In this document: one piece after another, positions 54,390 through 64,000 of the stretch | How positions within the stretch are numbered: position 1 is the first letter of the stretch | How the letters are laid out: every line of letters begins with the position of its first letter | Source: an uncultured Rikenellaceae bacterium | GTDB taxonomy: Bacteria > Bacteroidota > Bacteroidia > Bacteroidales > VadinHA17 | Length of the DNA: 64,000 nucleotides | Direction of reading: 5' to 3' | Assembly: GCA_964435015.1 (NCBI GenBank) | Contig: CAYSXP010000001.1 | Span: 344-64,343 of the forward strand | Notes under the pieces: generated by a model | What the model was told of the DNA's origin: nothing | Seen by the model: only the letters and a program-made list of their open reading frames with translations | Databases searched by the model: none | Made by a program: the position numbers and the translations under genes

Positions 54390-55568
54390 TCAATCGGGGT
54401 TCAGTGTGATTATCACTATGTCGGGGGGCATTCCGATACGGAATGGAAATCCCAGGACTCCCAGTCCCCTGCTTACAATAAGGAACTGGTTGTCTTTCCG
54501 GTACAATCCGTTCCATCTGGGATAGAACCAGCTTGCAGGGCTCCAGGCAAATCGTTTTGTGACAATCCCGAACTGCATGCCGTGAGTGTGCCCCGAAAAT
54601 GTTATATCGATGTCTGTTTTACCCGTGACGGACTTCTCCCAGAAATTCGGATCGTGGGCGAGGAGTATTTTAAGGTCGGCGCTGTCGCTTCCCCGCATGG
54701 CTTCAGTCAGATCACCGGAAATTATATCCGGGAAACGGCCCATGGTGGTTATTCCCGACAGGCTGACCCTTGCCCTGCCTATTTCAATCATCGCCGATTC
54801 ATCGTTAAGGACATTGTATCCTGATGAGGATATCAGATTGTTTATCAGCAATACATTGTTTTGCCTGTCGGCCTCAGTGAAATACGGATCATAAGTGCCG
54901 AAATCGTGGTTTCCCATCACCGCGAAGGCCCCGTACCTGCCCCCGGCGGTTCTGAGAATCGTGTCGAACCGGGCAAATTCACGCCAGCCTATTGTAACAA
55001 AGTCACCTGTATTGATCAGCAGGTCAGGGTTGATTTCGTTTATTTCCTTCATCACAGCTGCCAGCTGCCCTGCATGATGGTAAAATGACGACAGGTGCAG
55101 ATCCGAAATCTGTACAATTTTCAATCCTTTAAGGTCAGGGTGCAATCCCCTTATATCAACAGAGATCTTTTCCTTCCTGAAATTGAATCGTTCGAAAAGC
55201 GAACCGGTGAGCGCCGTGGAAAATATTACGGCAGCAATTATCAGCCCGGTGTTTGTAAGGGATCTGATGTGGCCGCCGGTGCGCCTTCTTGCCAATACTC
55301 CCGAAAAGTGGAACATTATCAGAATGAATCTTGGGATCACTACGGCAGCCGTCAGGCCGTTGAGGTTCATTAAGAGCCAGACATTGACAGGATCATCATA
55401 TATTCCCCTGTAGTTTGCCAGCCTGAACCACAGCACCCAGAACCACACACTGACCAGGGTGTTGAAAGTTACAAGAAAGTAGTATCTCAGCCATGACCTG
55501 TCGTAAAGATGCTGCCTTATAACCAGCAGAGTAAGGATTTCTATAATTATCAGAAGGATCGGGAACAT
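54390..55568 (-). CDS. Membrane-anchored calcineurin-like metallophosphoesterase
   Basis: N-terminal TM helices, then the motifs ISDLHL, NTGDF, GNHD and SGHTHG. Confidence 0.82.
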   Translation of the reverse strand: MFPILLIIIEILTLLVIRQHLYDRSWLRYYFLVTFNTLVSVWFWVLWFRLANYRGIYDDPVNVWLLMNLNGLTAAVVIPRFILIMFHFSGVLARRRTGGHIRSLTNTGLIIAAVIFSTALTGSLFERFNFRKEKISVDIRGLHPDLKGLKIVQISDLHLSSFYHHAGQLAAVMKEINEINPDLLINTGDFVTIGWREFARFDTILRTAGGRYGAFAVMGNHDFGTYDPYFTEADRQNNVLLINNLISSSGYNVLNDESAMIEIGRARVSLSGITTMGRFPDIISGDLTEAMRGSDSADLKILLAHDPNFWEKSVTGKTDIDITFSGHTHGMQFGIVTKRFAWSPASWFYPRWNGLYRKDNQFLIVSRGLGVLGFPFRIGMPPDIVIITLNPD

Positions 55569-55647: not shown

Positions 55648-56091
55648 ATGACTGAAGTAAGGTTTTATGATCCTTCGTTTTATCCCGGCAAGGGCCTGAC
55701 GTATTCGGTGATTGTATCCAGGTACCGCGGCAGATGGTTGTTTGTCAGGCATCATGGACGGGCTACCTGGGAGATACCGGGGGGGCATATTGAAAATAAT
55801 GAGACCTCCGATGAGGCTGCCCGCCGTGAGCTGAATGAGGAGACCGGGGCAACGGAATTTGAGCTTGAGTGTGTTTCAACCTATTCGGTGACCACGGACG
55901 GGGAGACAGGCTTTGGCAGGCTTTATTTTGCCGAGATTTTCAGCCTCGGCCCCATTCGGGATGTTTCGGAGATAAGTGAAATAAAAACAGACATATTCCG
56001 GCCCGGTGAAAATACCTATCCTGATATACAGTCAGGCATGTTTGAAAGGATACAGGCTTACCTGAAAACCGTAAAGGGAGAAACGGATTAA
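55648..56091 (+). CDS. NUDIX hydrolase
   Basis: Nudix box GGHIENNETSDEAARRELNEETGA, 147 aa. Confidence 0.88.
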   Translation: MTEVRFYDPSFYPGKGLTYSVIVSRYRGRWLFVRHHGRATWEIPGGHIENNETSDEAARRELNEETGATEFELECVSTYSVTTDGETGFGRLYFAEIFSLGPIRDVSEISEIKTDIFRPGENTYPDIQSGMFERIQAYLKTVKGETD

Positions 56092-56094
56092 GTA

Positions 56095-57279
56095 TCAGAT
56101 GTATTCGAAGCTGACTTTTTTTAGCCACTTCTCCTCAAGCAGCCTGGCGATTCGTTTAATGACCGTTCTCCTTATTTCAAGCTCTACCGGGAGGGTGGGA
56201 TCCTGATGTGCGATATTGATCCTTGTTCCGATAATGAAATGGATCTCGTCACTTTCCATAATGAGTCTTACGATCTTGTCTGCCGGCCCTTTCCCGAGCC
56301 TTACGCTGTTATTGTATGATTTGAGTATCTCATTCACTTTCTGCAGCGTCAGGATGCCTTCAGTTACAAGGTCAATGCCATCGATGAAACTTTCGGGGGG
56401 AAGATCGGGATCTTCAAAGATCAGTTCATCTACTATTTTCTTGTTAAGTTCCCTGGCTACAATATCGGCGGTTGTGCCTCCGCAGAGGATGACCCTGCCG
56501 TTGTAGTTTTTAACTTTTTCGGCAAGTTCGCGGTCTTTGTCCTTCTCGTAGGGCGGACCCGAACAGATAATAAGTTTTCTCGGGTCGCGGAAATAAATAG
56601 TGGCACAGCTTATGTCGTCTTTGGCCTTATAACCGTCGTTCTTGTGGGCCATGGTAACTATTTTCCCTGAGAGGGTTATGGCAGAGATTGAGGCTTCTCC
56701 CCTGACAAGCGATGATGCATAGGCTGCAACTTCGTCACGTCCCCAGCCAAACGGGAACAGTTCGCCACCCATACCGCTCTGGGCCACACCGTCGGAACAA
56801 AAGATGATCCTGTCTTCTTTGGAAGGGCTGAATGAACATGTCTTCAGGATTTTACCGGCATTTCTGCCCTTGTTCAGAACCACTTTCTTCCAGGAAGGGT
56901 CAAAGATCTCGGCGCCCTTCAGGATGATTGTGGAGGGATTGTCATATTCCAGGATATTGGTCTTTCCGCTGCTTTCGATATCGATGATGGTAAATGTCGA
57001 ATAGCTGATTTTCCTTTCACTGCAGACGGGCAGGGTGTTCATTATTATCTCGGCAATGGTGTCAACCTCCTTATGCTCTATTGTGAAATTCATTGCCATG
57101 GTTGCAGTGAGGGTGGCGAGGATATTGGCTTTTACGCCATGTCCCATGCCATCGGAGAGTACTGCAATAACCCTGTCCTCTTCCTTTATGTACCTGTAAA
57201 GGAACACATCACCGCTGATCCGTTCGCCATCGTGATTCCTTTGCTGGCTGTTGACTTCTATGTAAAAATCCTTAAACAA
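56095..57279 (-). CDS. PP2C/SpoIIE-family protein phosphatase with an uncharacterised C-terminal domain
   Basis: ISGDVFLY..., AVLSDGMGHGVKANI and FCSDGVAQSG are PP2C metal-binding contexts. A domain of about 160 aa follows. It starts 20 nt after the sensory hydrogenase stop. Confidence 0.8.
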   Translation of the reverse strand: MFKDFYIEVNSQQRNHDGERISGDVFLYRYIKEEDRVIAVLSDGMGHGVKANILATLTATMAMNFTIEHKEVDTIAEIIMNTLPVCSERKISYSTFTIIDIESSGKTNILEYDNPSTIILKGAEIFDPSWKKVVLNKGRNAGKILKTCSFSPSKEDRIIFCSDGVAQSGMGGELFPFGWGRDEVAAYASSLVRGEASISAITLSGKIVTMAHKNDGYKAKDDISCATIYFRDPRKLIICSGPPYEKDKDRELAEKVKNYNGRVILCGGTTADIVARELNKKIVDELIFEDPDLPPESFIDGIDLVTEGILTLQKVNEILKSYNNSVRLGKGPADKIVRLIMESDEIHFIIGTRINIAHQDPTLPVELEIRRTVIKRIARLLEEKWLKKVSFEYI

Positions 57280-57299: not shown

Positions 57300-59171
57300 T
57301 TACCTGGTCACCCTTCTTTTTTTATATGATTCGATGATTGAGTTGAGCATCTGTTCGGTTTCTGAGGCTCCTTCACCCAGCAGGAACCCGATTTTCTGAA
57401 CCATCTCCAGGTTCCTCTCAATCACTTCACTGACCCTGTTTGTGACTTCTTCTCCCTGAACTTCAGGGGAAAACAGGTCGCGGATTATTGCTCCGCATAT
57501 TTTATTCTTCCTGATGGGGAAAATGGAAATATTCAGCATATTGTCCTCGAACCTGATGTCTTTGCTGACAACCGGTTCGTCCTCCTTTAGAACGAAGGTG
57601 AACATGTTGTATACGTTGAAGGGCATAAGGGTTTTAATATCTGCACCCACGAGGCCCGGGATGATATCGGCAATGGATTTTGCATCTTCCCCGATAATGT
57701 TGATAAAGCTGTGGTTTGAGTGCAGGATTTTGAGGTTATTGTCAACAATCACCACGCCGGTAGGAAGTTTTTCAAGCATGTTGTGCATCATATCCGAGGC
57801 GCTTTGGGCCATTTCCTTCTCTCTCATGGCAAGTTCCTCTGAATCCTTGAGGGCTTTTTTAGTCTCGGCAAGCTTCCTGTTGGTTTGTCTCAGGGTTTCA
57901 ATGTATTCCTGTTTGTTGCGGAGGTTGAATGTATGGCACATTTCAGGAACCGCCAGTCCTTTTGCCACAGTCGACGCAAATTCCCTGCACGACTGGTAAC
58001 CGCATGCCCCGCAGTTGAGTTCTTCATCGGGATTATCCTTGCCGATGATTTTCATAACCTCGTTTATTGCCTCGGACGGAGGTTCGGGGATCCTCTGGTC
58101 GTTGGGATTGAATGTCCTGGAAAAGTCGAGCTCCGACCATCTTTCCATATCCTTCTGCCACTGTGCCTTATCCAGCAGTCCGACCCTTTTCTCAGCATAA
58201 ATCCTTACCAGCGCCCTTCTCCTGAACCGCTCTGAATGGCTCTCCATTCCCGGGCCAAGCATGCATCCGTGACAGAAGAACAGGTTGAAGTGGTGATGAA
58301 TGGTATCGATATACTGGCCGAAGTCATTCAGTGCTTCGAAGACCTCTTCCCTGCCTGCTGCGGTAATTACGTTGCTGGTAAAGAAATCGCGTTTGATGCC
58401 TCCGGCCTGAACGATCCCTGCGGGCAGAGGATATAATGCTCCCCAGTTTCCGTAGGGGGGATCGAATTCCGACATTTTAACGGTTCGTTCCTGTATCTCA
58501 AACTCCTCAAACAACTGCCTCAGCTCGATGAAGGTAAGTACGCCGTCAACCAGCTTCCCTCCCTTGTACATATGAGCTTCATCCTTGTTGTCGATGCAGG
58601 GGCCGATGAAAACTGATGCCACGTCGTCGCCATACAGTTCCTTTACAACCATTGCAGTTGCTATCATCGGCGATACCAGAGGCGCAAGATTCGGTACCAG
58701 CCCGGGATGATATTTCTCAATAAGCTTCACAATCGGGGGGCAGTTCGCGGTGATATAGTATTTGCCTTCGGCCTTGCTGACAAGATCGGCATACTCCGCT
58801 GCAATCAGGTCAACGCCAAAGGAATCTTCATGAACATAGTCGAAACCCAGCGCCCGGAGCATGCCGACAAACTTCCTGTAATCGGTTATGTCGACAAATT
58901 CAGGTGCAATGCTTGGCGAAACAAGAGCCGCGGTTTTTCTTTCGGAAGAAAGCAGGCGCTTCACCTCATCCCTCGAATCGCGGAACTCAACCGCACGGGG
59001 GGAACAGTCGATAAAGCATAATCCGCAGCCTATGCACCGGCTTTCAATAATTGTGGGGTGTTCCTTTTGTGCCCTTACTTCAATGGCATTGACCGGACAA
59101 ACCCTTACGCAGGAATAAGTGTTCCTGCATTTCTTTTCATTTATATAAAAAATTGGTTTTCTGTCGTTCAT
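57300..59171 (-). CDS. hydS: Sensory-type [FeFe]-hydrogenase-like protein with a C-terminal PAS domain (HydS/HfsB-like)
   Basis: N-terminal ferredoxin motifs (CRNTYSCVRVCP, CIGCGLCFIDCSP). H-domain motifs are ITANCPP, GPCIDNKDE and FFCHGCMLGPG. An extra CGACGYQSC...C cluster motif, a coiled coil and a PAS-like LEKLPTGVVIVDNNLKILHSNHSFINIIG follow. Confidence 0.8.
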   Translation of the reverse strand: MNDRKPIFYINEKKCRNTYSCVRVCPVNAIEVRAQKEHPTIIESRCIGCGLCFIDCSPRAVEFRDSRDEVKRLLSSERKTAALVSPSIAPEFVDITDYRKFVGMLRALGFDYVHEDSFGVDLIAAEYADLVSKAEGKYYITANCPPIVKLIEKYHPGLVPNLAPLVSPMIATAMVVKELYGDDVASVFIGPCIDNKDEAHMYKGGKLVDGVLTFIELRQLFEEFEIQERTVKMSEFDPPYGNWGALYPLPAGIVQAGGIKRDFFTSNVITAAGREEVFEALNDFGQYIDTIHHHFNLFFCHGCMLGPGMESHSERFRRRALVRIYAEKRVGLLDKAQWQKDMERWSELDFSRTFNPNDQRIPEPPSEAINEVMKIIGKDNPDEELNCGACGYQSCREFASTVAKGLAVPEMCHTFNLRNKQEYIETLRQTNRKLAETKKALKDSEELAMREKEMAQSASDMMHNMLEKLPTGVVIVDNNLKILHSNHSFINIIGEDAKSIADIIPGLVGADIKTLMPFNVYNMFTFVLKEDEPVVSKDIRFEDNMLNISIFPIRKNKICGAIIRDLFSPEVQGEEVTNRVSEVIERNLEMVQKIGFLLGEGASETEQMLNSIIESYKKRRVTR

Positions 59172-59189: not shown

Positions 59190-59444
59190 CTATTTTAAAT
59201 TTCCAAGCTCTTTCTCAAGGATTTCCTCAATTGCCGAAAGAGCAACCCCCTGGATAATTCTGTCATTTATTTTAAGATTCGGGCCATTGTTGCATAATCC
59301 CATGCAGCGGGCCCCCTTGAAGATTATTCTGTCCTCCAGGTGGTTTTTTTTCAGATAATCCCTGATAATCATTACCACCTCCCTGTTTCCCCTTGAAAAA
59401 CAGGAACTGCCGAGGCATATTTGCATCTCAATCCGCTGAGCCAT
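59190..59444 (-). CDS. Small thioredoxin-like [2Fe-2S] ferredoxin
   Basis: 84 aa with the pattern CLGSSC...CMGLCNNGPN (C-x4-C...C-x3-C). It is the first gene of the hydS operon. Confidence 0.8.
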   Translation of the reverse strand: MAQRIEMQICLGSSCFSRGNREVVMIIRDYLKKNHLEDRIIFKGARCMGLCNNGPNLKINDRIIQGVALSAIEEILEKELGNLK

Positions 59445-59694: not shown

Positions 59695-59731
59695 ATTGTT
59701 AATAAATAAACAATGTTATTTTATTAACAAT
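59695..59731. promoter_or_regulatory. Nested palindromic operator in the hydrogenase promoter (ATTGTTAATAAA-N13-TTTATTAACAAT)
   Basis: Perfect 12-nt inverted repeat at 59695-59706 / 59720-59731. It contains two overlapping Rex-like 18-mers, TTGTTAATAAATAAACAA (59696-59713) and ATGTTATTTTATTAACAA (59713-59730). Confidence 0.45.
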
Positions 59732-59768: not shown

Positions 59769-60239
59769 ATGACTGAAGATATTGAAAATATAGTAACCCG
59801 GTACAAGCAGGGCAGGCGGGAGGATCTTATTCCGCTTCTGCAGGAGATACAGGATACGCTGGGTCATCTTCCGGAGGAGGCCATAATCAGGGTGGGGAAG
59901 CATCTTGGTTTAAGTACGACGAAAATTTACGGTCTGGCCACCTTTTATGATCAGTTCAGATTTATACCCTGCGGCAGGATTCACATCAGCGTATGTCACG
60001 GTACCTCGTGTTTCATGAATGGTTCCCAGGGCATAATTGAGAAATTCATTGAGGAGTTCAGGACCGCTCCGGGGCAGACGTCACGCAACGGCAATTTCAG
60101 TTTTGATATTGTAAGCTGTATGGGTGGTTGTTATCACGGACCGGTGATTACGGTAAACGATGAATACCACATTCATGTGCGGCAGGATCAGATCCCGGAC
60201 CTGGTCAGGAAGCTTAAGTACATAATTGACAACGACTAG
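59769..60239 (+). CDS. hydC: NuoE-like [2Fe-2S] subunit of an NADH-linked hydrogenase (HydC/HndA-like)
   Basis: 156 aa with the pattern CHGTSCFMNG...CMGGCYHGPV (C-x4-C...C-x3-C). It abuts the NuoF-like gene: stop at 60237-60239, next ATG at 60240. Confidence 0.85.
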   Translation: MTEDIENIVTRYKQGRREDLIPLLQEIQDTLGHLPEEAIIRVGKHLGLSTTKIYGLATFYDQFRFIPCGRIHISVCHGTSCFMNGSQGIIEKFIEEFRTAPGQTSRNGNFSFDIVSCMGGCYHGPVITVNDEYHIHVRQDQIPDLVRKLKYIIDND

Positions 60240-62174
60240 ATGGATGATTTAAAGACATTCCTGATAGAGAAGGTACTGTTATTTGAATCCGATACGCTTT
60301 CTGATGAAGCGGAGAAGGTTTTGTCGCAGATCCGGCGCGTAAAGACCGATGTTCCTGTTGTATATGTTTCTTCAAATACCAGCAGCATCATTGCAGGTTC
60401 TGAGAAGACATACAATGCCCTGAAATTATTTGTGGAAGAGAATGAGCCCGGGACCTCTGTCATACGGGTTGGCTGCACCGGTCCGGCAAATTACGAACCG
60501 GTTATCTGCGTTCAGATGCCCGGGAAGAACAAGTTGTACTTCAGGAACATAACAGAAGAAAAAGTTGAGCCTCTGATGAACGGGGTCTTTCATAATGACA
60601 TTTCGGATGAGGATCTCATCGGTCAGTCGGGGTCAAAGGGTTTTGAGTTATGGCCGGGCATCGGGTTTCTGGAGGACATTCCGTTTTTCGCATTGCAGAG
60701 AAGGCTGGTTCTTGGCAACTGCGGCTGCTATGATCCCGGAAGCATTGAGGAGTATATAGCTGCGGGCGGTTACCGGACCTATCTGAAAACCATACGTCAC
60801 TACACCTACGATGAGGTTTGTGATCTGATAGAAAGGAGCGGGTTGCGGGGTCGCAGCGGCGGGGGCTACCTGACCGGGCTGAAATGGAAGCAGGCTCTCA
60901 ACACGCCAAGCAATGCACGATTCCTTATCTGCAATGCCAAGGAGAGTGACCCGGGTGCCTTCAGCGACCGGCTGATCATGGAGAGTGATCCGCACAGGCT
61001 GATAGAGGGCATGGCTATTGCTGCATATGCCATCGGATCTTCAAATGCCATTCTTTATCTTAAGGCCGGATCTGAACATGCCAGGGCAGGGATTGAGAAA
61101 GCTGTCGGGCAGGCCAGGGAATACGGGCTCCTGGGCCATAATATCTATTCCAGCGGCTACAACCTCGACATTGTGGTCAGAATGGAACCGGGCGCTTTTG
61201 TTTGCGGGGAGGAAACAGCACTGATAAACAGCCTCGAAGGGAAAAGAGGCATGCCTCAGCTGAAACCTCCGTATCCTACAACTGCGGGTCTGGCAGGAAA
61301 GCCAACGGTGATCAACAATGTGGAAACCCTGATGAATGTTCCGCTGATAATGCAGAATGGCCCCGAATGGTATCGTACAATCGGAACCGCCAGCAGTCCC
61401 GGCACGAAAATCTTTGCACTTGCCGGCCGGGGAAGATTCTCGGGTGTTGTGGAAGTTGAAATGGGGACCAGCCTCAGGACGATTGTCGAGGATATTGCCG
61501 ACGGCATAAAGGATGCGCGGGAGTTTAAGGCAATCCAGGTCGGAGGTGCTTCAGGCTCATTCATAACCTCTGACGGGCTTGACACTCCGGTCGACTTTGA
61601 TGCAATGAACATGCAGGGGTTCAGCATGGGTTCGGGAGGATTCGTGGTGATTGACGAAACCTCGTGCATTGTTGATCTTGTCCGCTACTACATGGAGTTT
61701 ATCTGCAAGGAGAGCTGCGGCAAATGCATTCCGTGCCGTGAAGGCACCGGAAGAATGCTCGAGATCCTCGAAAACGTTATCCGGAAACCTGCAAGCGAAG
61801 ATTCAGGCACAACGCTTGAAAGATTCAAGGGGGTTATGCAGCTTGAAACGATCTCAGGTGTCATGAAGGACGCATCGCTTTGCGGGCTGGGGCAGAATGC
61901 GCCCAACCCGTTTGTAAGCGCCCTGAAGAGCTTCAGGGAGGAATTCGAGGAACATATTTTTGACAGGAAATGCCGGGCAAATGTATGCAGGGGGCTGCGC
62001 ACCTTCATTATTAATGTGGAAAAGTGCACCGGGTGCACGGTCTGTGCCGGCAAGTGCCCTGCCAACGCCATTTATGGAACGAGGCTCCAGCCCTACTTCA
62101 TTGTGGAGGATAAATGCATCGGATGCGGAATATGCTATGATGTTTGCAAATTCAGTGCCGTGATTGTTAAGTAG
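60240..62174 (+). CDS. hydB: NuoF-like flavoprotein subunit (HydB/HndC-like) with two C-terminal [4Fe-4S] motifs
   Basis: LRGRSGGGYLTGLKW, ICNAKESDPGAFSDR, VCGEETALINSLEGKRGMPQLKPPYP, SCGKCIPCREG (N3-type cluster), and CTGCTVCAGKCP + CIGCGICYDVC. Confidence 0.85.
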   Translation: MDDLKTFLIEKVLLFESDTLSDEAEKVLSQIRRVKTDVPVVYVSSNTSSIIAGSEKTYNALKLFVEENEPGTSVIRVGCTGPANYEPVICVQMPGKNKLYFRNITEEKVEPLMNGVFHNDISDEDLIGQSGSKGFELWPGIGFLEDIPFFALQRRLVLGNCGCYDPGSIEEYIAAGGYRTYLKTIRHYTYDEVCDLIERSGLRGRSGGGYLTGLKWKQALNTPSNARFLICNAKESDPGAFSDRLIMESDPHRLIEGMAIAAYAIGSSNAILYLKAGSEHARAGIEKAVGQAREYGLLGHNIYSSGYNLDIVVRMEPGAFVCGEETALINSLEGKRGMPQLKPPYPTTAGLAGKPTVINNVETLMNVPLIMQNGPEWYRTIGTASSPGTKIFALAGRGRFSGVVEVEMGTSLRTIVEDIADGIKDAREFKAIQVGGASGSFITSDGLDTPVDFDAMNMQGFSMGSGGFVVIDETSCIVDLVRYYMEFICKESCGKCIPCREGTGRMLEILENVIRKPASEDSGTTLERFKGVMQLETISGVMKDASLCGLGQNAPNPFVSALKSFREEFEEHIFDRKCRANVCRGLRTFIINVEKCTGCTVCAGKCPANAIYGTRLQPYFIVEDKCIGCGICYDVCKFSAVIVK

Positions 62175-62291: not shown

Positions 62292-64000
62292 ATGCTGTTC
62301 ACAATTCATGTTAACAACAAAAAGATAAAGGCCGAGAAGGGGGAAACCATACTGTCGGCTCTTAACCGCAACGGCATCATCATCCCTACCCTGTGCAGGA
62401 TGAAGGAGTTCACTCCGACCGGGGCATGCAGGATGTGTGTGGTTGAGGTAGAGGGAAAAGAGAGGCTCGTCACTGCCTGTTCCCAGCCTGTTGAGGAATG
62501 GATGAGGATCAGAACCCACTCGCCGAGGGTGATCACCGCCCGTAAAACCATCGTTGAACTCCTTCTTTCCAACCATCCCGACGATTGCCTTTATTGTGAC
62601 AGGAATCTTAACTGTGAACTGCAGAATCTGTCTGAGGAACTCAATATCAGGGAAAGGAGGATCAAGGGAAAAAAGATTAAACCCCGCCTCGACCAGTCGA
62701 GCCCTGCAATTGTAAGGGAGCTGGCAAAATGCATACTCTGCGGCAGGTGCGTAAGGGTATGCGAGGAGGTCATAACCTGCACATCGCTTGACTTTATCAA
62801 CAGGGGAGGAGAAACCCATGTAGGTGCCGCAATGGACAAGGATTTTAATTTCTCCAGCTGCATTCAGTGCGGACAGTGTGCCCTTGTCTGCCCTACCGGG
62901 GCGCTGCACGAAAAATACAATATTGCCGAGGTTCAGGAATATCTTAACAAGCATGATATCGTTAAGGCTATTCAGTATTCCCCCTTTGTTCCTGCCGGCA
63001 TAGCTGAGGAGCTCGGGATCAGGTACAACAGGGATTTTGACAAGAATCTGAATGCGATCCTCCGCAAAATCGGCTTCGACAGGATCTACTCAACAGGTAC
63101 GGGCACAGATTTATGCATATCTGAACTGGCTGACCAGCTCTCGGAAAAACTTGATAATAAAGATGAGAACCCTCTTTATATAACGGCATGCCCGGCCTGG
63201 GTCAAATTTGCGGAGCAGTCGGTGCCGGAAATTATTCCCTGTCTGTCGACGGTTAAGTCGCCGCAGCAGATAGCAGGGATACTGATAAAGACCATTGTTG
63301 CCGATCAGCTGAAAGTTCAGCCCGACAAGATATTCTCGGTTTCCGTATCTCCGTGCATGGCAATGAAGTATGAGGCAAGGCGCGACGGAATGATGAGAAA
63401 GGGTATCAGCGACGTTGATTCGGTGATGACTGTGCGTGAGCTTGCCAGGCTGATCAGGCTTTACGGGATTGATGTATTCAATACTGCCAGGGAGCCGGCT
63501 GACGAACCCCTTGCCGGCAGGAGCTCCCTGGCGGTGCTTGCTGAGCTGTCGGGCGGACTGGCGGAAGGTGTTGTCAGGCTCGTCTCATATCGGCTGACGG
63601 GAAAGGATCCTGACAGGCAGATGCTGAAAAAGCTCAGGGGCTCGGGTTCATTCAGGGATTGCACGGTAAAGGCGGGGGATACGGAGGTGAGGGTCGCTGT
63701 GGTTGACGGCCTTACAGGGCTTGAGAAGCTCAACAATGCATTTCAGGCCGGAGCAAAATATCACCTGGTTGAAGTCATGGCCTGTCCGGGCGGCTGCATT
63801 CACGGCGGCGGGCTCCCGAAGATCGCATCAAGGGAGGATCTGAAAAACAGGGCCAGGCTGATATGGCAGTCCGATGAAACAGAGGCAATATCACTGCCTG
63901 AAAAGTCGCCTTCATTCATAGGCCTCTGCGACAAACTGATAAAGGAAAACAGGGAGATAAGTGACCGAAGAATATTTCATACTCATTTTGAAAAGAAGGA
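62292..64000 (+). CDS. [FeFe]-hydrogenase HydA-like subunit (M3 architecture), 3'-partial, non-canonical active-site pocket
   Basis: Open frame from ATG 62292 to the window end; it is absent from the supplied track because no stop is reached. It reads MLFTIHVNNKKIKAEKGETILSAL...CRMCVVEVEG (2Fe-2S), HPDDCLYCDRNLNC, CILCGRCVRVC, CIQCGQCALVCP, and H-domain motifs ITACPAW, SPCMAMKYE and EVMACPGGCIHGGGLP. Confidence 0.85.
   Translation, partial: MLFTIHVNNKKIKAEKGETILSALNRNGIIIPTLCRMKEFTPTGACRMCVVEVEGKERLVTACSQPVEEWMRIRTHSPRVITARKTIVELLLSNHPDDCLYCDRNLNCELQNLSEELNIRERRIKGKKIKPRLDQSSPAIVRELAKCILCGRCVRVCEEVITCTSLDFINRGGETHVGAAMDKDFNFSSCIQCGQCALVCPTGALHEKYNIAEVQEYLNKHDIVKAIQYSPFVPAGIAEELGIRYNRDFDKNLNAILRKIGFDRIYSTGTGTDLCISELADQLSEKLDNKDENPLYITACPAWVKFAEQSVPEIIPCLSTVKSPQQIAGILIKTIVADQLKVQPDKIFSVSVSPCMAMKYEARRDGMMRKGISDVDSVMTVRELARLIRLYGIDVFNTAREPADEPLAGRSSLAVLAELSGGLAEGVVRLVSYRLTGKDPDRQMLKKLRGSGSFRDCTVKAGDTEVRVAVVDGLTGLEKLNNAFQAGAKYHLVEVMACPGGCIHGGGLPKIASREDLKNRARLIWQSDETEAISLPEKSPSFIGLCDKLIKENREISDRRIFHTHFEKK

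What the first reader, a model, noticed from the sequence alone, without database searches (positions are those of the whole stretch)
62292..64000. NuoEF-linked HydA-like protein keeps the H-cluster cysteines but lacks the canonical proton-transfer pathway and Lys358
The ORF aligns without gaps to Clostridium pasteurianum CpI numbering, as I recall that sequence.

Conserved positions:
- Cluster ligands C300 (ITAC300PAW), C355, and C498/C502 (EVMACPGGCIHGGGLP).
- S319, P324, Q325 and E361.

Substituted positions:
- Proton-relay Cys299 is Ala (GCA, 63186-63188).
- Glu279 is Leu, Glu282 is Gln and Arg286 is Lys (...SE278L279AD281Q282LSEK286...).
- Met353 is Ser.
- The CN-ligand-binding Lys358 is Met (ATG, 63363-63365), with a Lys at 359 (SPCMAMKYE versus MPCTSKKFE).

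The same one-residue Lys shift is seen in the adjacent PAS-hydrogenase. Loss of C299/E279/E282 is a hallmark of slow, sensory-type hydrogenases. Yet this protein has full M3 catalytic architecture and follows NuoE/NuoF-like genes, as in electron-bifurcating HydABC. It may be a HydABC-like complex with an alternative proton route. Speculatively, it could be a redox/H2-sensing complex rather than a high-turnover enzyme.
Basis: partly seen in the sequence, partly recalled or inferred. Interest (0 to 1): 0.7.

Follow-up and report, generated by a model that had tools for sequence, protein, structure and literature searches.

The report
HydABC hydrogenase with remodelled active-site pocket
This gene encodes the hydrogen-handling subunit of an NADH-linked iron hydrogenase from an uncultured Bacteroidales bacterium; it keeps the cysteines that hold the metal cluster but replaces the usual proton relay and the lysine that anchors the catalytic iron pair with a different, equally conserved residue set, so it is probably a slow or altered hydrogenase that has not been tested.

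Summary
The ORF is 569 of 573 codons and has an M3 HydA architecture. It aligns without gaps to CpI over residues 206-430. It carries C299A, K358M, M353S, E279L, E282Q and R286K, and keeps C300, C355, C499 and C503.

This is a lineage trait, not noise:
- All 158 close homologues, from uncultured Bacteroidales, share it.
- They also share invariant non-canonical S230, E418 and H504.
- dN/dS of the H-domain is about 0.07.

The gene sits in a conserved hydrogenase supercluster, part of which lies beyond the window. Upstream and divergent are a small ferredoxin, a PAS-type HydS and a PP2C phosphatase. The operon itself is HydC, HydB, HydA, HydS-histidine kinase, response regulators, Rex, RibF, HydG and HydE.

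Orthologous Bacteroidales operons carry a canonical HydA. The window's clade belongs to a wider set of non-canonical HydA lineages. In these the H-domain evolves about twice as fast relative to the F-domain as it does in canonical enzymes.

My best reading is a still-functional, sensor-like, low-turnover H-cluster pocket with a different proton and CN-anchoring solution. The main rival is loss of the [2Fe] subsite. I rate it a new variant of a known kind, untested biochemically.

The parts
62292..64000 (+). hydA* : M3-type [FeFe]-hydrogenase large subunit with non-canonical H-domain (569 of 573 codons; last 4 codons lie beyond the window)
   Evidence: P0001, 573 aa, 100% identical. PDB alignments. 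NCBIfam best hit is NF040763 at 566 bits, below its cutoff of 765.
62292..62921 (+). F-domain of HydA* (residues 1-210): [2Fe-2S], His-ligated [4Fe-4S] and two [4Fe-4S] motifs, all intact
   Evidence: Pfam domains. All Cys/His ligands are invariant or >=90% conserved (C35) in 34 clade members. 25 of 25 canonical >=90% columns are kept. dN/dS is 0.017.
63186..63191 (+). L1 motif core: A299 (GCA) in place of the proton-relay Cys, followed by cluster ligand C300 (TGC)
   Evidence: A299 occurs in 146 of 158 clade sequences (the rest are T/G/V/I). C300 occurs in 158 of 158.
63348..63374 (+). L2 motif SPCMAMKYE: S353, C355, M358 (in place of the CN-anchoring Lys), K359, E361
   Evidence: M358 occurs in 155 of 158, S/T353 in 158 of 158 and K359 in 158 of 158.
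63123..63149 (+). Former proton-transfer helix: E278 kept; E279L, E282Q, R286K
   Evidence: Positions 279/282/286 vary within the clade, whereas E278 is invariant.
63540..63545 (+). A417-E418 (canonical F417-G418): invariant clade-specific glutamate, candidate replacement proton relay
   Evidence: E418 occurs in 158 of 158 and A417 in 150 of 158. Canonical representatives have F-G/A here. Position 417 lies next to the adt ligand according to PMC10055695. The role of E418 is inferred, not shown.
62979..62981 (+). S230 (canonical A230), invariant clade-specific hydroxyl near the [2Fe] site
   Evidence: S230 occurs in 157 of 158. Canonical representatives have A.
63777..63815 (+). L3 motif EVMACPGGCIHGGGLP: M496 (= CpI M497), C498/C502 (= CpI C499/C503), H504 and L508 (clade-specific)
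   Evidence: C498/C502 occur in 158 of 158, M496 in 157, H504 in 153 and L508 in 151.
60240..62174 (+). hydB: NuoF-like flavoprotein with C-terminal 2x[4Fe-4S] ferredoxin domain (Bfu type); its N-terminal domain lacks two conserved Cys
   Evidence: Pfam. Full-length PDB matches to NfnB 9n5u (1e-161), HylB/HoxF and HydB of A. woodii, T. kivui and T. maritima. N-terminal Cys comparison.
59769..60239 (+). hydC: NuoE-like thioredoxin-type [2Fe-2S] subunit
   Evidence: PF01257 at 2.3e-41. NCBIfam NuoE family hit.
59696..59730 (.). Two overlapping 18-bp palindromes (TTGTTAAnnnnTTAACAA type) about 40-75 bp upstream of hydC: probable operator, Rex-like
   Evidence: Present at the same place in 46 of 46 related loci, against 4.4% of background 300-nt windows. 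A rex gene lies in the operon of relatives. The assignment to Rex is inferred.
57300..59171 (-). hydS1: PAS-type putative sensory [FeFe]-hydrogenase (N299, G353, N358, K359), divergently transcribed
   Evidence: Pfam Fe_hyd_lg_C plus the FeS PF04060 domain. Motifs.
56095..57279 (-). PP2C/SpoIIE-type phosphatase downstream of hydS1
   Evidence: PF07228. Conserved next to hydS1 in most related loci.
59193..59444 (-). 84-aa thioredoxin-like [2Fe-2S] ferredoxin at the head of the divergent hydS1 operon
   Evidence: PF01257 at 1e-09. Equivalent small genes occur in L056 and L061.

Best explanation
The ORF is the HydA subunit of a three-subunit, NuoE/NuoF-linked (HydABC, Bfu-type) [FeFe]-hydrogenase of an uncultured Bacteroidales bacterium.

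**Shown.**
- The electron-transfer parts (HydC, HydB and the F-domain of HydA) are intact and highly constrained.
- The H-domain keeps the four cysteines that carry the H-cluster.
- Almost the whole second coordination sphere and the inner group-A proton pathway have been exchanged: C299A, K358M, M353S/T, F417A, G418E, A230S, A272T, E279L, E282Q.
- The replacement residues are themselves fixed across the clade.

**Inferred.**
- The protein still receives a [2Fe] subsite from HydEFG and turns over H2. Its kinetics are sensor-like (group C/D-like): slow and probably needing overpotential.
- Protons reach the adt amine by a route different from both group A (Cys299) and group D (Glu at the V423 position). 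The invariant Glu418, together with the added hydroxyls S230, T268, T272 and S/T353, is the candidate.
- The distal CN is held by backbone and Ser contacts instead of Lys358.
- The complex would act as a redox valve (NADH, probably with ferredoxin, to H2). Its transcription would be set by an operon-encoded Rex and by two sensory hydrogenases: a PAS/PP2C branch and a histidine-kinase branch.
For: **Architecture and partners.**

**Substitutions.** They are verified against four solved enzymes.

**The pocket is constrained rather than decaying.**
- In 158 clade sequences, C300, C355, C498, C502, E278, S319, K359 and E418 are 158/158; S230, Q325, E361 and M496 are 157/158; M358 is 155, H504 is 153 and A299 is 146.
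- dN/dS against the 92%-identical L051 is 0.069 for the H-domain, at dS about 0.78.

**Residues still canonical.** P231, P324, Q325, M497 and the GG/GGG glycines remain.

**Similarity to characterised slow hydrogenases.** A299, S353, a hydrophobic 279 and K286 match TamHydS (A137, S191, F119, K126). TamHydS binds an H-cluster and is active without Cys299 (PMC11803613, PMC10407848). TmHydS with Ala at this position is more active than CpI C299A (PMC10055695).

**Genomic logic.**
- The operon is orthologous to Bacteroidales/Tenuifilaceae operons that carry a canonical HydA. Gene order downstream is the same: HydS-HK, two response regulators, Rex, RibF, HydG.
- hydG and hydE are adjacent.
- A conserved Rex-like operator precedes hydC in 46 of 46 loci.
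Against: - In group A enzymes, mutating the residue next to the distal CN to Asn gave an inactive enzyme with no IR or EPR signal of [2Fe]H. This is Knörzer et al. as summarised in PMC11376134. The review calls the residue arginine; I recall it as Lys358 in CpI and Lys228 in CrHydA1. TamHydS apparently keeps this Lys, since the 'active-site' variant needed only three changes. Loss of K358 therefore goes beyond any characterised sensory enzyme.
- The H-domain evolves unusually fast. Within the clade, F-domain identity to the window protein is 75-94% against 44-72% for the H-domain.
- Among 28 non-canonical representatives the median H/F identity ratio is 0.58, against 1.23 among 61 canonical ones.
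- The window protein keeps only 26 of 40 canonical H-domain columns but 25 of 25 F-domain columns.
- Sister lineages carry bulky residues (F, L, H, W, Y) at position 299 and D230/R358 pairs that could fill the [2Fe] pocket.
- The spatial position of E418 could not be checked. The AlphaFold model was poor (pLDDT 60) and no coordinates were available.
- The only tested Bacteroidales 'group A3' HydA (B. thetaiotaomicron) showed 0.22% of CrHydA1 activity after semisynthetic maturation. Its motifs could not be checked.
Confidence: 0.45

Rival explanations
1. **Pseudo-hydrogenase.** The H-domain keeps only the [4Fe-4S]H cubane and no longer binds the [2Fe] subsite, as in eukaryotic Nar1/NARFL. HydA*BC then works as a hydrogenase-derived NADH/ferredoxin redox module, with an unknown acceptor or none. 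H2 chemistry in the locus is left to the HydS-histidine kinase protein (D299, K358 kept) and to other hydrogenases of the cell.
For: - Loss of K358, whose mutation abolishes [2Fe]H in group A.
- Loss of C299, F417, M353 and the inner proton pathway.
- The H-domain specifically has lost its usual constraint in all non-canonical lineages, with an H/F ratio of 0.58 against 1.23.
- Sister lineages have bulky or charged residues at 299, 230 and 358.
- The protein fails every curated hydrogenase HMM cutoff.
- Of the three H-domain proteins in the locus, only HydS2-HK keeps K358, and it does so strictly.
- The B. thetaiotaomicron A3 subunit is almost inactive, barely transcribed and dispensable. Its relation to this clade is untested.
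Against: - Within the window's clade the pocket residues are fixed, not drifting, and omega is 0.07.
- M497, P231, P324 and Q325, which contact only the [2Fe] site, are retained.
- The operon keeps its H2 sensors, Rex and maturase genes exactly as in canonical operons.
- No alternative substrate or acceptor is suggested by any neighbouring gene.
Confidence: 0.27
2. **Sensing complex.** HydA*BC binds an H-cluster but acts as a signal-generating device. It compares H2 with the NADH/ferredoxin pools and feeds the adjacent kinase/phosphatase circuitry, rather than carrying metabolic flux.
For: - Sensor-like residues are present at 299, 353, 279 and 286.
- The gene is flanked by two signalling hydrogenases, a PP2C phosphatase, two response regulators and Rex.
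- hydA* and hydS2 are separated by few bases, or overlap, in related loci.
Against: - There is no signalling domain (PAS, HK or the C-terminal Cx2Cx4Cx16C cluster) on HydA*, HydB or HydC.
- The same regulators surround canonical, presumably catalytic, HydA in orthologous operons, so their presence says nothing special about HydA*.
- A full NADH-FMN module is an expensive input device.
Confidence: 0.13
3. **Ordinary, fast electron-bifurcating hydrogenase.** The substitutions are compensated and make no functional difference.
For: - HydB and HydC are complete, and HydB has the C-terminal ferredoxin domain of bifurcating enzymes.
- Purifying selection is strong.
- The bifurcating flavin site, not the H-cluster, may limit turnover (my inference).
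Against: - Every characterised fast enzyme has Cys (or Asp) at 299 together with K358.
- C299A in CpI/CrHydA1 is nearly inactive.
- All 61 canonical representatives keep AREER/C/M/KK/FGV.
- 14 of 40 near-invariant canonical H-domain columns are changed.
Confidence: 0.1
4. **Artefact.** Either a mis-alignment, a sequencing or assembly error, or a decaying pseudogene.
For: The ORF is cut by the window end. A few related loci (L054, L055) contain frameshifts.
Against: - Alignments to four solved structures are ungapped.
- An identical full-length 573-aa protein exists on a 331-kb contig.
- There are 158 homologues with the same motifs, and omega is 0.02-0.07.
Confidence: 0.02

Closest known systems
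Electron-bifurcating HydABC [FeFe]-hydrogenases (group A3 / Bfu type): Thermoanaerobacter kivui 8A6T, Acetobacterium woodii 7Q4V, Thermotoga maritima 7P5H
   Same: - Same three-gene unit (NuoE-like, NuoF-like with a C-terminal 2x[4Fe-4S] domain, M3 HydA).
- Best structural-database matches for both HydA (7e-120 to 1.5e-97) and HydB.
- All F-cluster ligands and the four H-cluster cysteines are present.
   Different: - Those enzymes have TSCCP or TSCSP, MPCxxKK, E279, E282, R286, F417 and G418. Here the residues are A299, S353, M358, L279, Q282, K286, A417 and E418.
- The protein scores below the curated cutoffs of NF040763 and TIGR02512.
- The HydB N-terminal domain lacks two conserved Cys.
Canonical Bacteroidales/Tenuifilaceae HydABC-HydS(HK) operon (relatives of 'sub-type V BfuABC' of Zheng & Huang 2024, PMC11406978)
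   Same: - Orthologous operon: NuoE, NuoF, HydA, HydS-histidine kinase, response regulator, hybrid RR-HK, Rex, RibF, (MBL), HydG.
- The F-domain is 61-65% and HydB 51-53% identical to the window's proteins.
- The paper already noted two bfuT (hydS) genes flanking bfuCBA in cultured Bacteroidota.
   Different: - Those HydA proteins keep SSCCPxW (or C299D) and MPCxAKKFE.
- Their H-domain is only 38-40% identical to the window's.
- The two canonical loci examined lack the upstream ferredoxin, HydS(PAS) and PP2C unit.
- The paper did not describe loss of C299 or K358.
Putative sensory group D hydrogenase TamHydS (M2e) and group C TmHydS (M2f)
   Same: - Ala at the C299 position.
- Ser or Gly at M353.
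- A hydrophobic residue at E279 and Lys at R286 (TamHydS A137, S191, F119, K126).
- Both enzymes bind an H-cluster and are slow.
   Different: - Those proteins have M2 architecture with a C-terminal four-Cys cluster (plus PAS in group C). They are not NuoEF subunits.
- TamHydS uses E252 at the CpI V423 position, whereas the window has Leu there.
- They keep the H-bonding residues of the [2Fe] site, whereas the window lacks K358.
- The window keeps M497 and S319.
Bacteroides thetaiotaomicron 'group A3' M3 HydA (Welsh et al. 2025, PMC12578642)
   Same: A NuoF-adjacent M3 HydA from Bacteroidales. After semisynthetic maturation it gave only 0.22% of CrHydA1 activity, was transcribed at about 4 TPM, and showed no fitness defect.
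   Different: Its sequence could not be retrieved here. Whether it shares A299/M358 is unknown. It is not among the 120 clusters at least 75% identical to the window protein.
CpI variants C299A (PDB 6GLY) and the Lys358-to-Asn variant of CpI/CrHydA1
   Same: They carry the same single substitutions at the two key positions. 6GLY is in fact the best-scoring CpI entry.
   Different: In group A scaffolds these changes nearly abolish activity (C299A) or prevent [2Fe]H retention. Here they are natural, fixed and accompanied by a dozen other fixed changes.
Eukaryotic Nar1/NARFL hydrogenase-like proteins (from my own knowledge, not tested here)
   Same: An H-domain that keeps the cubane cysteines but has lost the [2Fe]-binding environment.
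   Different: These are eukaryotic cytosolic Fe-S assembly factors. They have no NuoEF partners, no hydEFG and no H2 sensors nearby.
hfs locus of Thermoanaerobacterium saccharolyticum / HydS-PP2C sensory modules (from my own knowledge)
   Same: Small Fe-S protein, PAS-hydrogenase, PP2C phosphatase and a kinase-type hydrogenase next to a hydrogenase operon.
   Different: Here the PAS-hydrogenase also lacks K358, and the controlled HydA is non-canonical.

Membership tests
[FeFe]-hydrogenase group A3 (HydABC / Bfu electron-bifurcating) | M3 HydA: N-terminal [2Fe-2S], His-ligated [4Fe-4S], two [4Fe-4S] and an H-domain | tested here: met
   Pfam domains. All ligands are invariant or >=90% conserved in the clade.
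[FeFe]-hydrogenase group A3 (HydABC / Bfu electron-bifurcating) | Co-operonic NuoE-like HydC and NuoF-like HydB carrying FMN/NADH motifs and a C-terminal 2x[4Fe-4S] domain | tested here: met
   (full-length alignment to NfnB, HylB and HydB structures).
[FeFe]-hydrogenase group A3 (HydABC / Bfu electron-bifurcating) | Four H-cluster cysteine ligands (CpI C300, C355, C499, C503) | tested here: met
   158 of 158 clade sequences.
[FeFe]-hydrogenase group A3 (HydABC / Bfu electron-bifurcating) | L1 motif TSCCPxW with the proton-relay Cys299 | tested here: not met
   The motif is ITACPAW. A299 occurs in 146 of 158 and Cys never occurs.
[FeFe]-hydrogenase group A3 (HydABC / Bfu electron-bifurcating) | L2 motif MPCxxKxxE with Lys358 (H-bond to the distal CN) and Met353 | tested here: not met
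   The motif is SPCMAMKYE. M358 occurs in 155 of 158 and S/T353 in 158 of 158.
[FeFe]-hydrogenase group A3 (HydABC / Bfu electron-bifurcating) | Group-A proton pathway E279, E282, S319, R286 | tested here: not met
   The residues are L279, Q282 and K286. Only S319 is kept, and 279/282/286 vary within the clade.
[FeFe]-hydrogenase group A3 (HydABC / Bfu electron-bifurcating) | Passes curated family HMM thresholds (NCBIfam NF040763 group A6; TIGR02512 group A) | tested here: not met
   566 bits against a cutoff of 765; 343.8 against 405.95.
[FeFe]-hydrogenase group A3 (HydABC / Bfu electron-bifurcating) | NADH- and ferredoxin-coupled H2 turnover | not testable with these tools
   Needs purified enzyme.
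Putative sensory [FeFe]-hydrogenase group C (HydS, M2f) | C299 replaced by a non-relay residue and M353 by a small residue | tested here: met
   A299 and S353. Definition from PMC10055695 and PMC10407848.
Putative sensory [FeFe]-hydrogenase group C (HydS, M2f) | M2 N-terminus, C-terminal Cx2Cx4Cx16C cluster and a PAS (or kinase) domain | tested here: not met
   There is no PF04060, PAS or HATPase hit on HydA*, and the protein ends at residue 573. The neighbouring HydS1 and HydS2 do have these domains.
Putative sensory [FeFe]-hydrogenase group D (M2e, TamHydS) | Ala at 299 and Ser/Thr at 353 | tested here: met
   Definition in PMC8163306.
Putative sensory [FeFe]-hydrogenase group D (M2e, TamHydS) | Group-D proton relay Glu (TamHydS E252, at the CpI V423 column) | tested here: not met
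   The TamHydS sequence context SGGEAF, taken from the published primers, maps to the window's SGGLAE. The residue is L423, and L/M/F/I across the clade.
Putative sensory [FeFe]-hydrogenase group D (M2e, TamHydS) | M2e architecture with a C-terminal four-Cys motif | tested here: not met
   The architecture is M3 with no C-terminal cluster motif.
Hydrogenase-like proteins without [2Fe] subsite (Nar1/NARFL type) | Cubane cysteines kept, [2Fe]-anchoring residues lost, no [2Fe]H bound | tested here: inconclusive
   The cysteines are kept and K358, C299 and F417 are lost. However, M497, P231, P324 and Q325 are kept and the pocket is constrained. Cofactor content cannot be tested here.

The most novel reading that the evidence does not exclude
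The H-domain of this Bacteroidales HydA no longer holds the diiron subsite. Its cubane plus a re-lined, polar and strictly conserved pocket (S230, T268, T272, S/T353, E418, H504) serves a new purpose: another small-molecule chemistry, or redox signalling inside a NuoEF (Bfu) complex. It would then be a bacterial counterpart of Nar1, that is, a hydrogenase-derived protein with a new function. The many sister lineages with fast-evolving H-domains would be independent experiments of the same kind.
Probability: 0.22. Interest if true: 0.8.

Novelty: new variant of a known kind. Interest (0 to 1): 0.6.

Why it matters
**For the chemistry.** [FeFe]-hydrogenase research treats Cys299 and Lys358 as near-universal requirements. 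Cys299 provides fast proton delivery and Lys358 holds the diiron subsite. Here both are missing in a large, naturally selected family: more than 150 sequence clusters from dozens of Bacteroidales species in digesters, soils and sediments. The family sits in the scaffold of a metabolic (HydABC) enzyme, not a sensor.
- If the protein binds an H-cluster, it shows a third natural solution for proton delivery and a Lys-independent way to anchor the CN ligand. That is useful for understanding second-sphere control, and possibly O2/CO tolerance.
- If it does not, it is a bacterial pseudo-hydrogenase inside an electron-bifurcating frame.

**For surveys.** Metagenomic surveys count these genes as 'group A3' H2 producers (JGI names them 'iron-only hydrogenase group A'). 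Motif-filtered surveys discard them instead (PMC6085437). H2 budgets for Bacteroidales-rich anaerobic systems may therefore be misassigned.

Tried and rejected
1. **Structure prediction.** I ran AlphaFold2 on a 34-sequence alignment. Mean pLDDT was 59.9, the L2 and L3 regions were below 50, and no coordinates were accessible. The model was not used, and no fold search was run.
2. **Group-D proton pathway.** I mapped TamHydS E252 and E289 from the published primers. E289 is the universally conserved CpI E495, and E252 falls on the window's L423. The group-D route is therefore rejected.
3. **Canonical Rex box.** The pattern TGTGA-N6-TCACA is not found near the operon. A related TTGTTAA-N4-TTAACAA pair was found instead.
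4. **Literature on Lys358.** Two searches gave nothing useful. I relied on one review passage and my own recollection.
5. **Cultured carriers.** Searches on Tenuifilum, Perlabentimonas and Williamwhitmania gave only the mSystems 2024 paper. The profile search returned mostly canonical Bacteroidales HydA proteins, with no named isolates.
6. **B. thetaiotaomicron A3 HydA sequence.** It is not in the paper's supplements and could not be retrieved.
7. **Other hydrogenases in the same genomes.** This could not be tested, because only +/-10 kb around each hit is readable. No contig length is shared between the list of canonical hits and the list of clade hits. That is weak evidence that the two are alternatives rather than paralogues.
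8. **Solved sensory hydrogenase for comparison.** None is in the PDB copy.

Full report
**What is at the coordinates.** Window 62292-64000 (+) is an ORF of 569 codons that runs off the window end. An identical 573-aa protein (P0001) exists on a 331-kb contig, so only four codons are missing. Pfam finds an N-terminal [2Fe-2S] domain, the NuoG-type His/Cys [4Fe-4S] motif, two ferredoxin-type [4Fe-4S] motifs and the [FeFe]-hydrogenase large-subunit domain at 9.7e-64. This is the M3 architecture. Immediately upstream on the same strand lie a NuoE-like gene (59769-60239) and a 644-aa NuoF-like gene (60240-62174). The NuoF-like protein aligns over its full length with the B subunits of Bfu-type enzymes, including the C-terminal two-cluster ferredoxin domain. 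Those enzymes are NfnB 9n5u, HylB, and HydB of A. woodii, T. kivui and T. maritima.

**Check of the observation.**
- HMMER alignments to T. kivui HydA1 (7e-120), A. woodii HydA1, T. maritima HydA and CpI (about 2e-91) have no gaps between residues 206 and about 430. The ORF's numbering therefore equals CpI numbering in that stretch.
- The DNA shows A299 (GCA, 63186-63188) before C300, S353, C355, M358 (ATG, 63363-63365), K359, E361, L279, Q282 and K286.
- S319, P324, Q325 and E278 are kept, as are M497 and the L3 cysteines (own numbering M496, C498, C502).
- The reference bifurcating enzymes read TSCCP or TSCSP, and MPCxxKK.
- Two corrections apply. After about residue 430 the ORF is one residue behind CpI, so 'C498/C502' are CpI C499/C503. 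And K359 is present in canonical enzymes as well, so K358 is lost rather than shifted.

**It is a lineage trait.**
- The 120 best database clusters are 75-100% identical and almost all 573 aa long. Every one has [ST]-[A/T/G/V/I]-C-P at L1 and [ST]PCxAMK[YF]E at L2.
- A scan of one genome per species found 55 loci. All are in uncultured Bacteroidales or 'Rikenellaceae' MAGs, apart from one 4-kb contig binned as Chloroflexota.
- In 158 aligned clade sequences, C300, C355, C498, C502, E278, S319, K359 and E418 are invariant. S230, Q325, E361 and M496 are 157/158. M358 is 155, H504 is 153, L508 is 151, A417 is 150 and A299 is 146, with the remainder T/G/V/I.
- The former proton-pathway positions 279, 282 and 286 vary freely.
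- Against the 92%-identical L051, dN/dS is 0.017 for the F-domain and 0.069 for the H-domain, at dS about 0.75.
- The H-domain is therefore a working domain with a different, fixed pocket.

**Genomic setting.**
- On the opposite strand lie an 84-aa thioredoxin-like ferredoxin (59193-59444), a 623-aa PAS-type sensory hydrogenase (57300-59171) and a PP2C phosphatase (56095-57279).
- Beyond the window, hydA in relatives is followed by a hydrogenase-histidine kinase fusion, a response regulator, a hybrid RR-kinase and Rex. Next come RibF, HydG, a TM1266-family gene and, on the other strand, a tryptophanase-like lyase and HydE.
- Two overlapping 18-bp palindromes of the type TTGTTAAnnnnTTAACAA sit 40-75 bp upstream of hydC in the window (59696-59730). 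They are present in 46 of 46 related loci, against 4.4% of background windows. They resemble the Rex operator, and I infer Rex control.
- The PAS-hydrogenase also lacks K358: its L2 motif is GPCIDNKDE, and position 358 is N/A/T/S/G among orthologues. The downstream kinase-hydrogenase strictly keeps D299 and K358.

**Wider family.**
- In a search of 50%-identity representatives, the clade collapses to one representative. The next relatives are at most 46% identical.
- Many of these relatives are also non-canonical. They show A/S/N/F/L/H/E at position 299, M/A/R/N/H/G/L/E at 358 and S/T/E/Q at 353, but keep C300, C355, C499, C503, K359 and E361. In a rough neighbour-joining tree they group with the window's clade, apart from the canonical enzymes.
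- Four such relatives were looked up. All four keep NuoE-NuoF-HydA, and the three with readable downstream sequence (P0125-P0127) continue with HydS-HK, RR, RR-HK, Rex and RibF. Two loci also carry the upstream HydS(PAS)-PP2C unit. All are Bacteroidales MAGs.
- A profile search then recovered a large set of 574-aa Bacteroidales/Tenuifilaceae HydA proteins that are canonical (SSCCPxW, MPCxAKKFE) or carry C299D. These sit in the orthologous operon. The two loci examined lack the upstream PAS/PP2C unit.
- The window's gene is therefore an orthologue of a canonical bifurcating-type HydA whose H-domain has been re-lined.

**Pattern of constraint.** The table gives mean pairwise identity among the 50%-identity representatives.

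| Comparison | F-domain identity | H-domain identity | Median H/F ratio |
|---|---|---|---|
| 61 canonical representatives | 35% | 42% | 1.23 |
| 28 representatives lacking both C299 and K358 | 44% | 26% | 0.58 |

- Between orthologous operons, HydB is 46-56%, HydS2 51-60% and the F-domain 54-67% identical. The H-domain is only 29-40% identical whenever a non-canonical member is involved, and 51% between the two canonical-type operons (one fully canonical, one C299D).
- Within the window's clade, identity to the window protein is 75-94% for the F-domain and 44-72% for the H-domain.
- The window protein keeps 25 of 25 F-domain columns that are at least 90% conserved in canonical enzymes. It keeps only 26 of 40 such H-domain columns, and the losses cluster at the [2Fe] site and the inner proton pathway.
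- NCBI's curated models place it below threshold: 566 against 765 bits for 'group A6', and 344 against 406 for 'group A'. This explains names such as 'ferredoxin' in public records.

**Comparison with what is known.**
- Ala at 299 and Ser/Thr/Gly at 353 define the putative sensory groups C and D. Those enzymes bind an H-cluster and are slow. TamHydS has A137, S191, F119 and K126 at the CpI 299, 353, 279 and 286 positions (PMC10407848, PMC8163306, PMC10055695, PMC11803613). The window matches all four.
- It lacks the group-D relay Glu, which lies at the CpI V423 column according to the published primer sequences. It also lacks their domain architecture, and it is a NuoEF subunit.
- Loss of the residue next to the distal CN goes further than any characterised enzyme. 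In group A, its mutation to Asn gave inactive protein without [2Fe]H signals (PMC11376134). The review says arginine; I recall Lys358 in CpI and Lys228 in CrHydA1.
- The mSystems 2024 paper on BfuABC noticed the two flanking hydS genes in cultured Bacteroidota, but not the motif loss.
- Poudel et al. 2018 discarded HytA (HydA-homologous) sequences lacking L1-L3. This may explain why the variant has been overlooked.
- Welsh et al. 2025 found the B. thetaiotaomicron 'A3' M3 subunit almost inactive (0.22% of CrHydA1), barely transcribed and dispensable. I could not obtain its sequence, so the link is only a lead.

**Interpretation.**
- The evidence excludes artefact and pseudogene.
- Two readings remain serious. 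The first, which I prefer (0.45), is that the pocket still houses an H-cluster and works like a sensory-type, low-turnover site inside a metabolic HydABC frame. In support, the pocket residues are fixed, and four residues that touch only the [2Fe] site (P231, P324, Q325, M497) are kept. A299/S353-type enzymes are known to be active, and the operon keeps H2 sensors, Rex and maturases exactly as canonical operons do.
- Under this reading, the invariant E418, next to position 417 that lies against the adt ligand, and the added hydroxyls are the candidate proton route and CN contacts. This is inference, and I could not check geometry.
- The second reading (0.27) is that the [2Fe] subsite is gone. 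It is supported by the loss of K358, the reversal of the usual H>F constraint, and bulky or charged residues at 299/230/358 in sister lineages.
- A dedicated sensing complex (0.13) and a normal fast enzyme (0.10) are less likely.

**Verdict.**
- The feature is a new variant of a known kind.
- It is widespread and conserved, and it can be tested directly by expression, maturation and FTIR.
- Interest is 0.6.

Noticed in passing
window 59696-59730: Two overlapping 18-bp palindromes (TTGTTAATAAATAAACAA and ATGTTATTTTATTAACAA) lie just upstream of hydC. The same pair, at about -75 and -58, occurs in 46 of 46 related loci against 4.4% of background windows. It is probably a Rex-type operator with T/A where the classic box has G/C.
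   Followed up: partly
window 57300-59171 (-); motifs at 58737-58754 and 58578-58604: The PAS-type sensory hydrogenase HydS1 has N299 and also lacks K358 (GPCIDNKDE). Position 358 is N/A/T/S/G among its orthologues. The kinase-fused HydS2 downstream of hydA (outside the window; L051 11824-13782) keeps D299 and K358 in every locus.
   Followed up: partly
window 59193-59444 (-): An 84-aa thioredoxin-like [2Fe-2S] ferredoxin gene heads the divergent hydS1-PP2C operon. The trio resembles hfsABC of Thermoanaerobacterium (resemblance from memory).
   Followed up: partly
window 60240-60740 (+), HydB residues 1-165: The N-terminal thioredoxin-like domain of HydB lacks two of the three conserved cysteines (NTSS where relatives have SCG; GCTGPA where they have GCxGxC). 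The P0125 lineage lacks all three. Operons with canonical HydA keep them. The accessory [2Fe-2S] cluster is probably lost.
   Followed up: partly
L051 11824-21702 (close relative, beyond the window end): A conserved supercluster follows hydA: HydS-histidine kinase, response regulator, hybrid RR-kinase, Rex, RibF, HydG, a CPF_0552/TM1266-family gene, a tryptophanase-like lyase (TPL-like) on the other strand, and HydE. hydF was not seen in the stretch available.
   Followed up: partly
L062, L064 versus L057, L061 and most of L001-L055: The two operons examined with canonical or C299D HydA lack the upstream HydS(PAS)-PP2C unit. Most loci with non-canonical HydA have it, although L006, L007, L013 and L059 do not. 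This may be a correlation between gaining the second sensor and remodelling of HydA. The sample is too small to judge.
   Followed up: no
P0122 (protein from the representative search, not in the window): A 4122-aa protein carries seven tandem H-domains, each with MPCTVKKTE and EIMMCEGGCMNGAGQP. It is a giant multi-hydrogenase polypeptide.
   Followed up: no
PDB 7q4v_A alignment and representatives P0124, P0138, P0142 and others: A. woodii HydA1 and many otherwise canonical HydA proteins read TSCSPGW. They have Cys in the CpI-299 column and Ser in the CpI-300 (cluster-ligand) column. I did not resolve how the cubane is ligated there.
   Followed up: no
representatives P0125, P0128, P0143, P0147 (sister lineages): Asp at position 230 repeatedly co-occurs with Arg at position 358. 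This possible salt bridge would sit where the distal CN would lie. Other lineages have F/L/H/W/Y at position 299.
   Followed up: no
window 55648-56091 (+) and 54390-55568 (-): A NUDIX hydrolase and a membrane-anchored calcineurin-like phosphoesterase flank the PP2C gene. They are syntenic in most related loci ('up147' and 'up392'). No link to the hydrogenase locus is evident.
   Followed up: no
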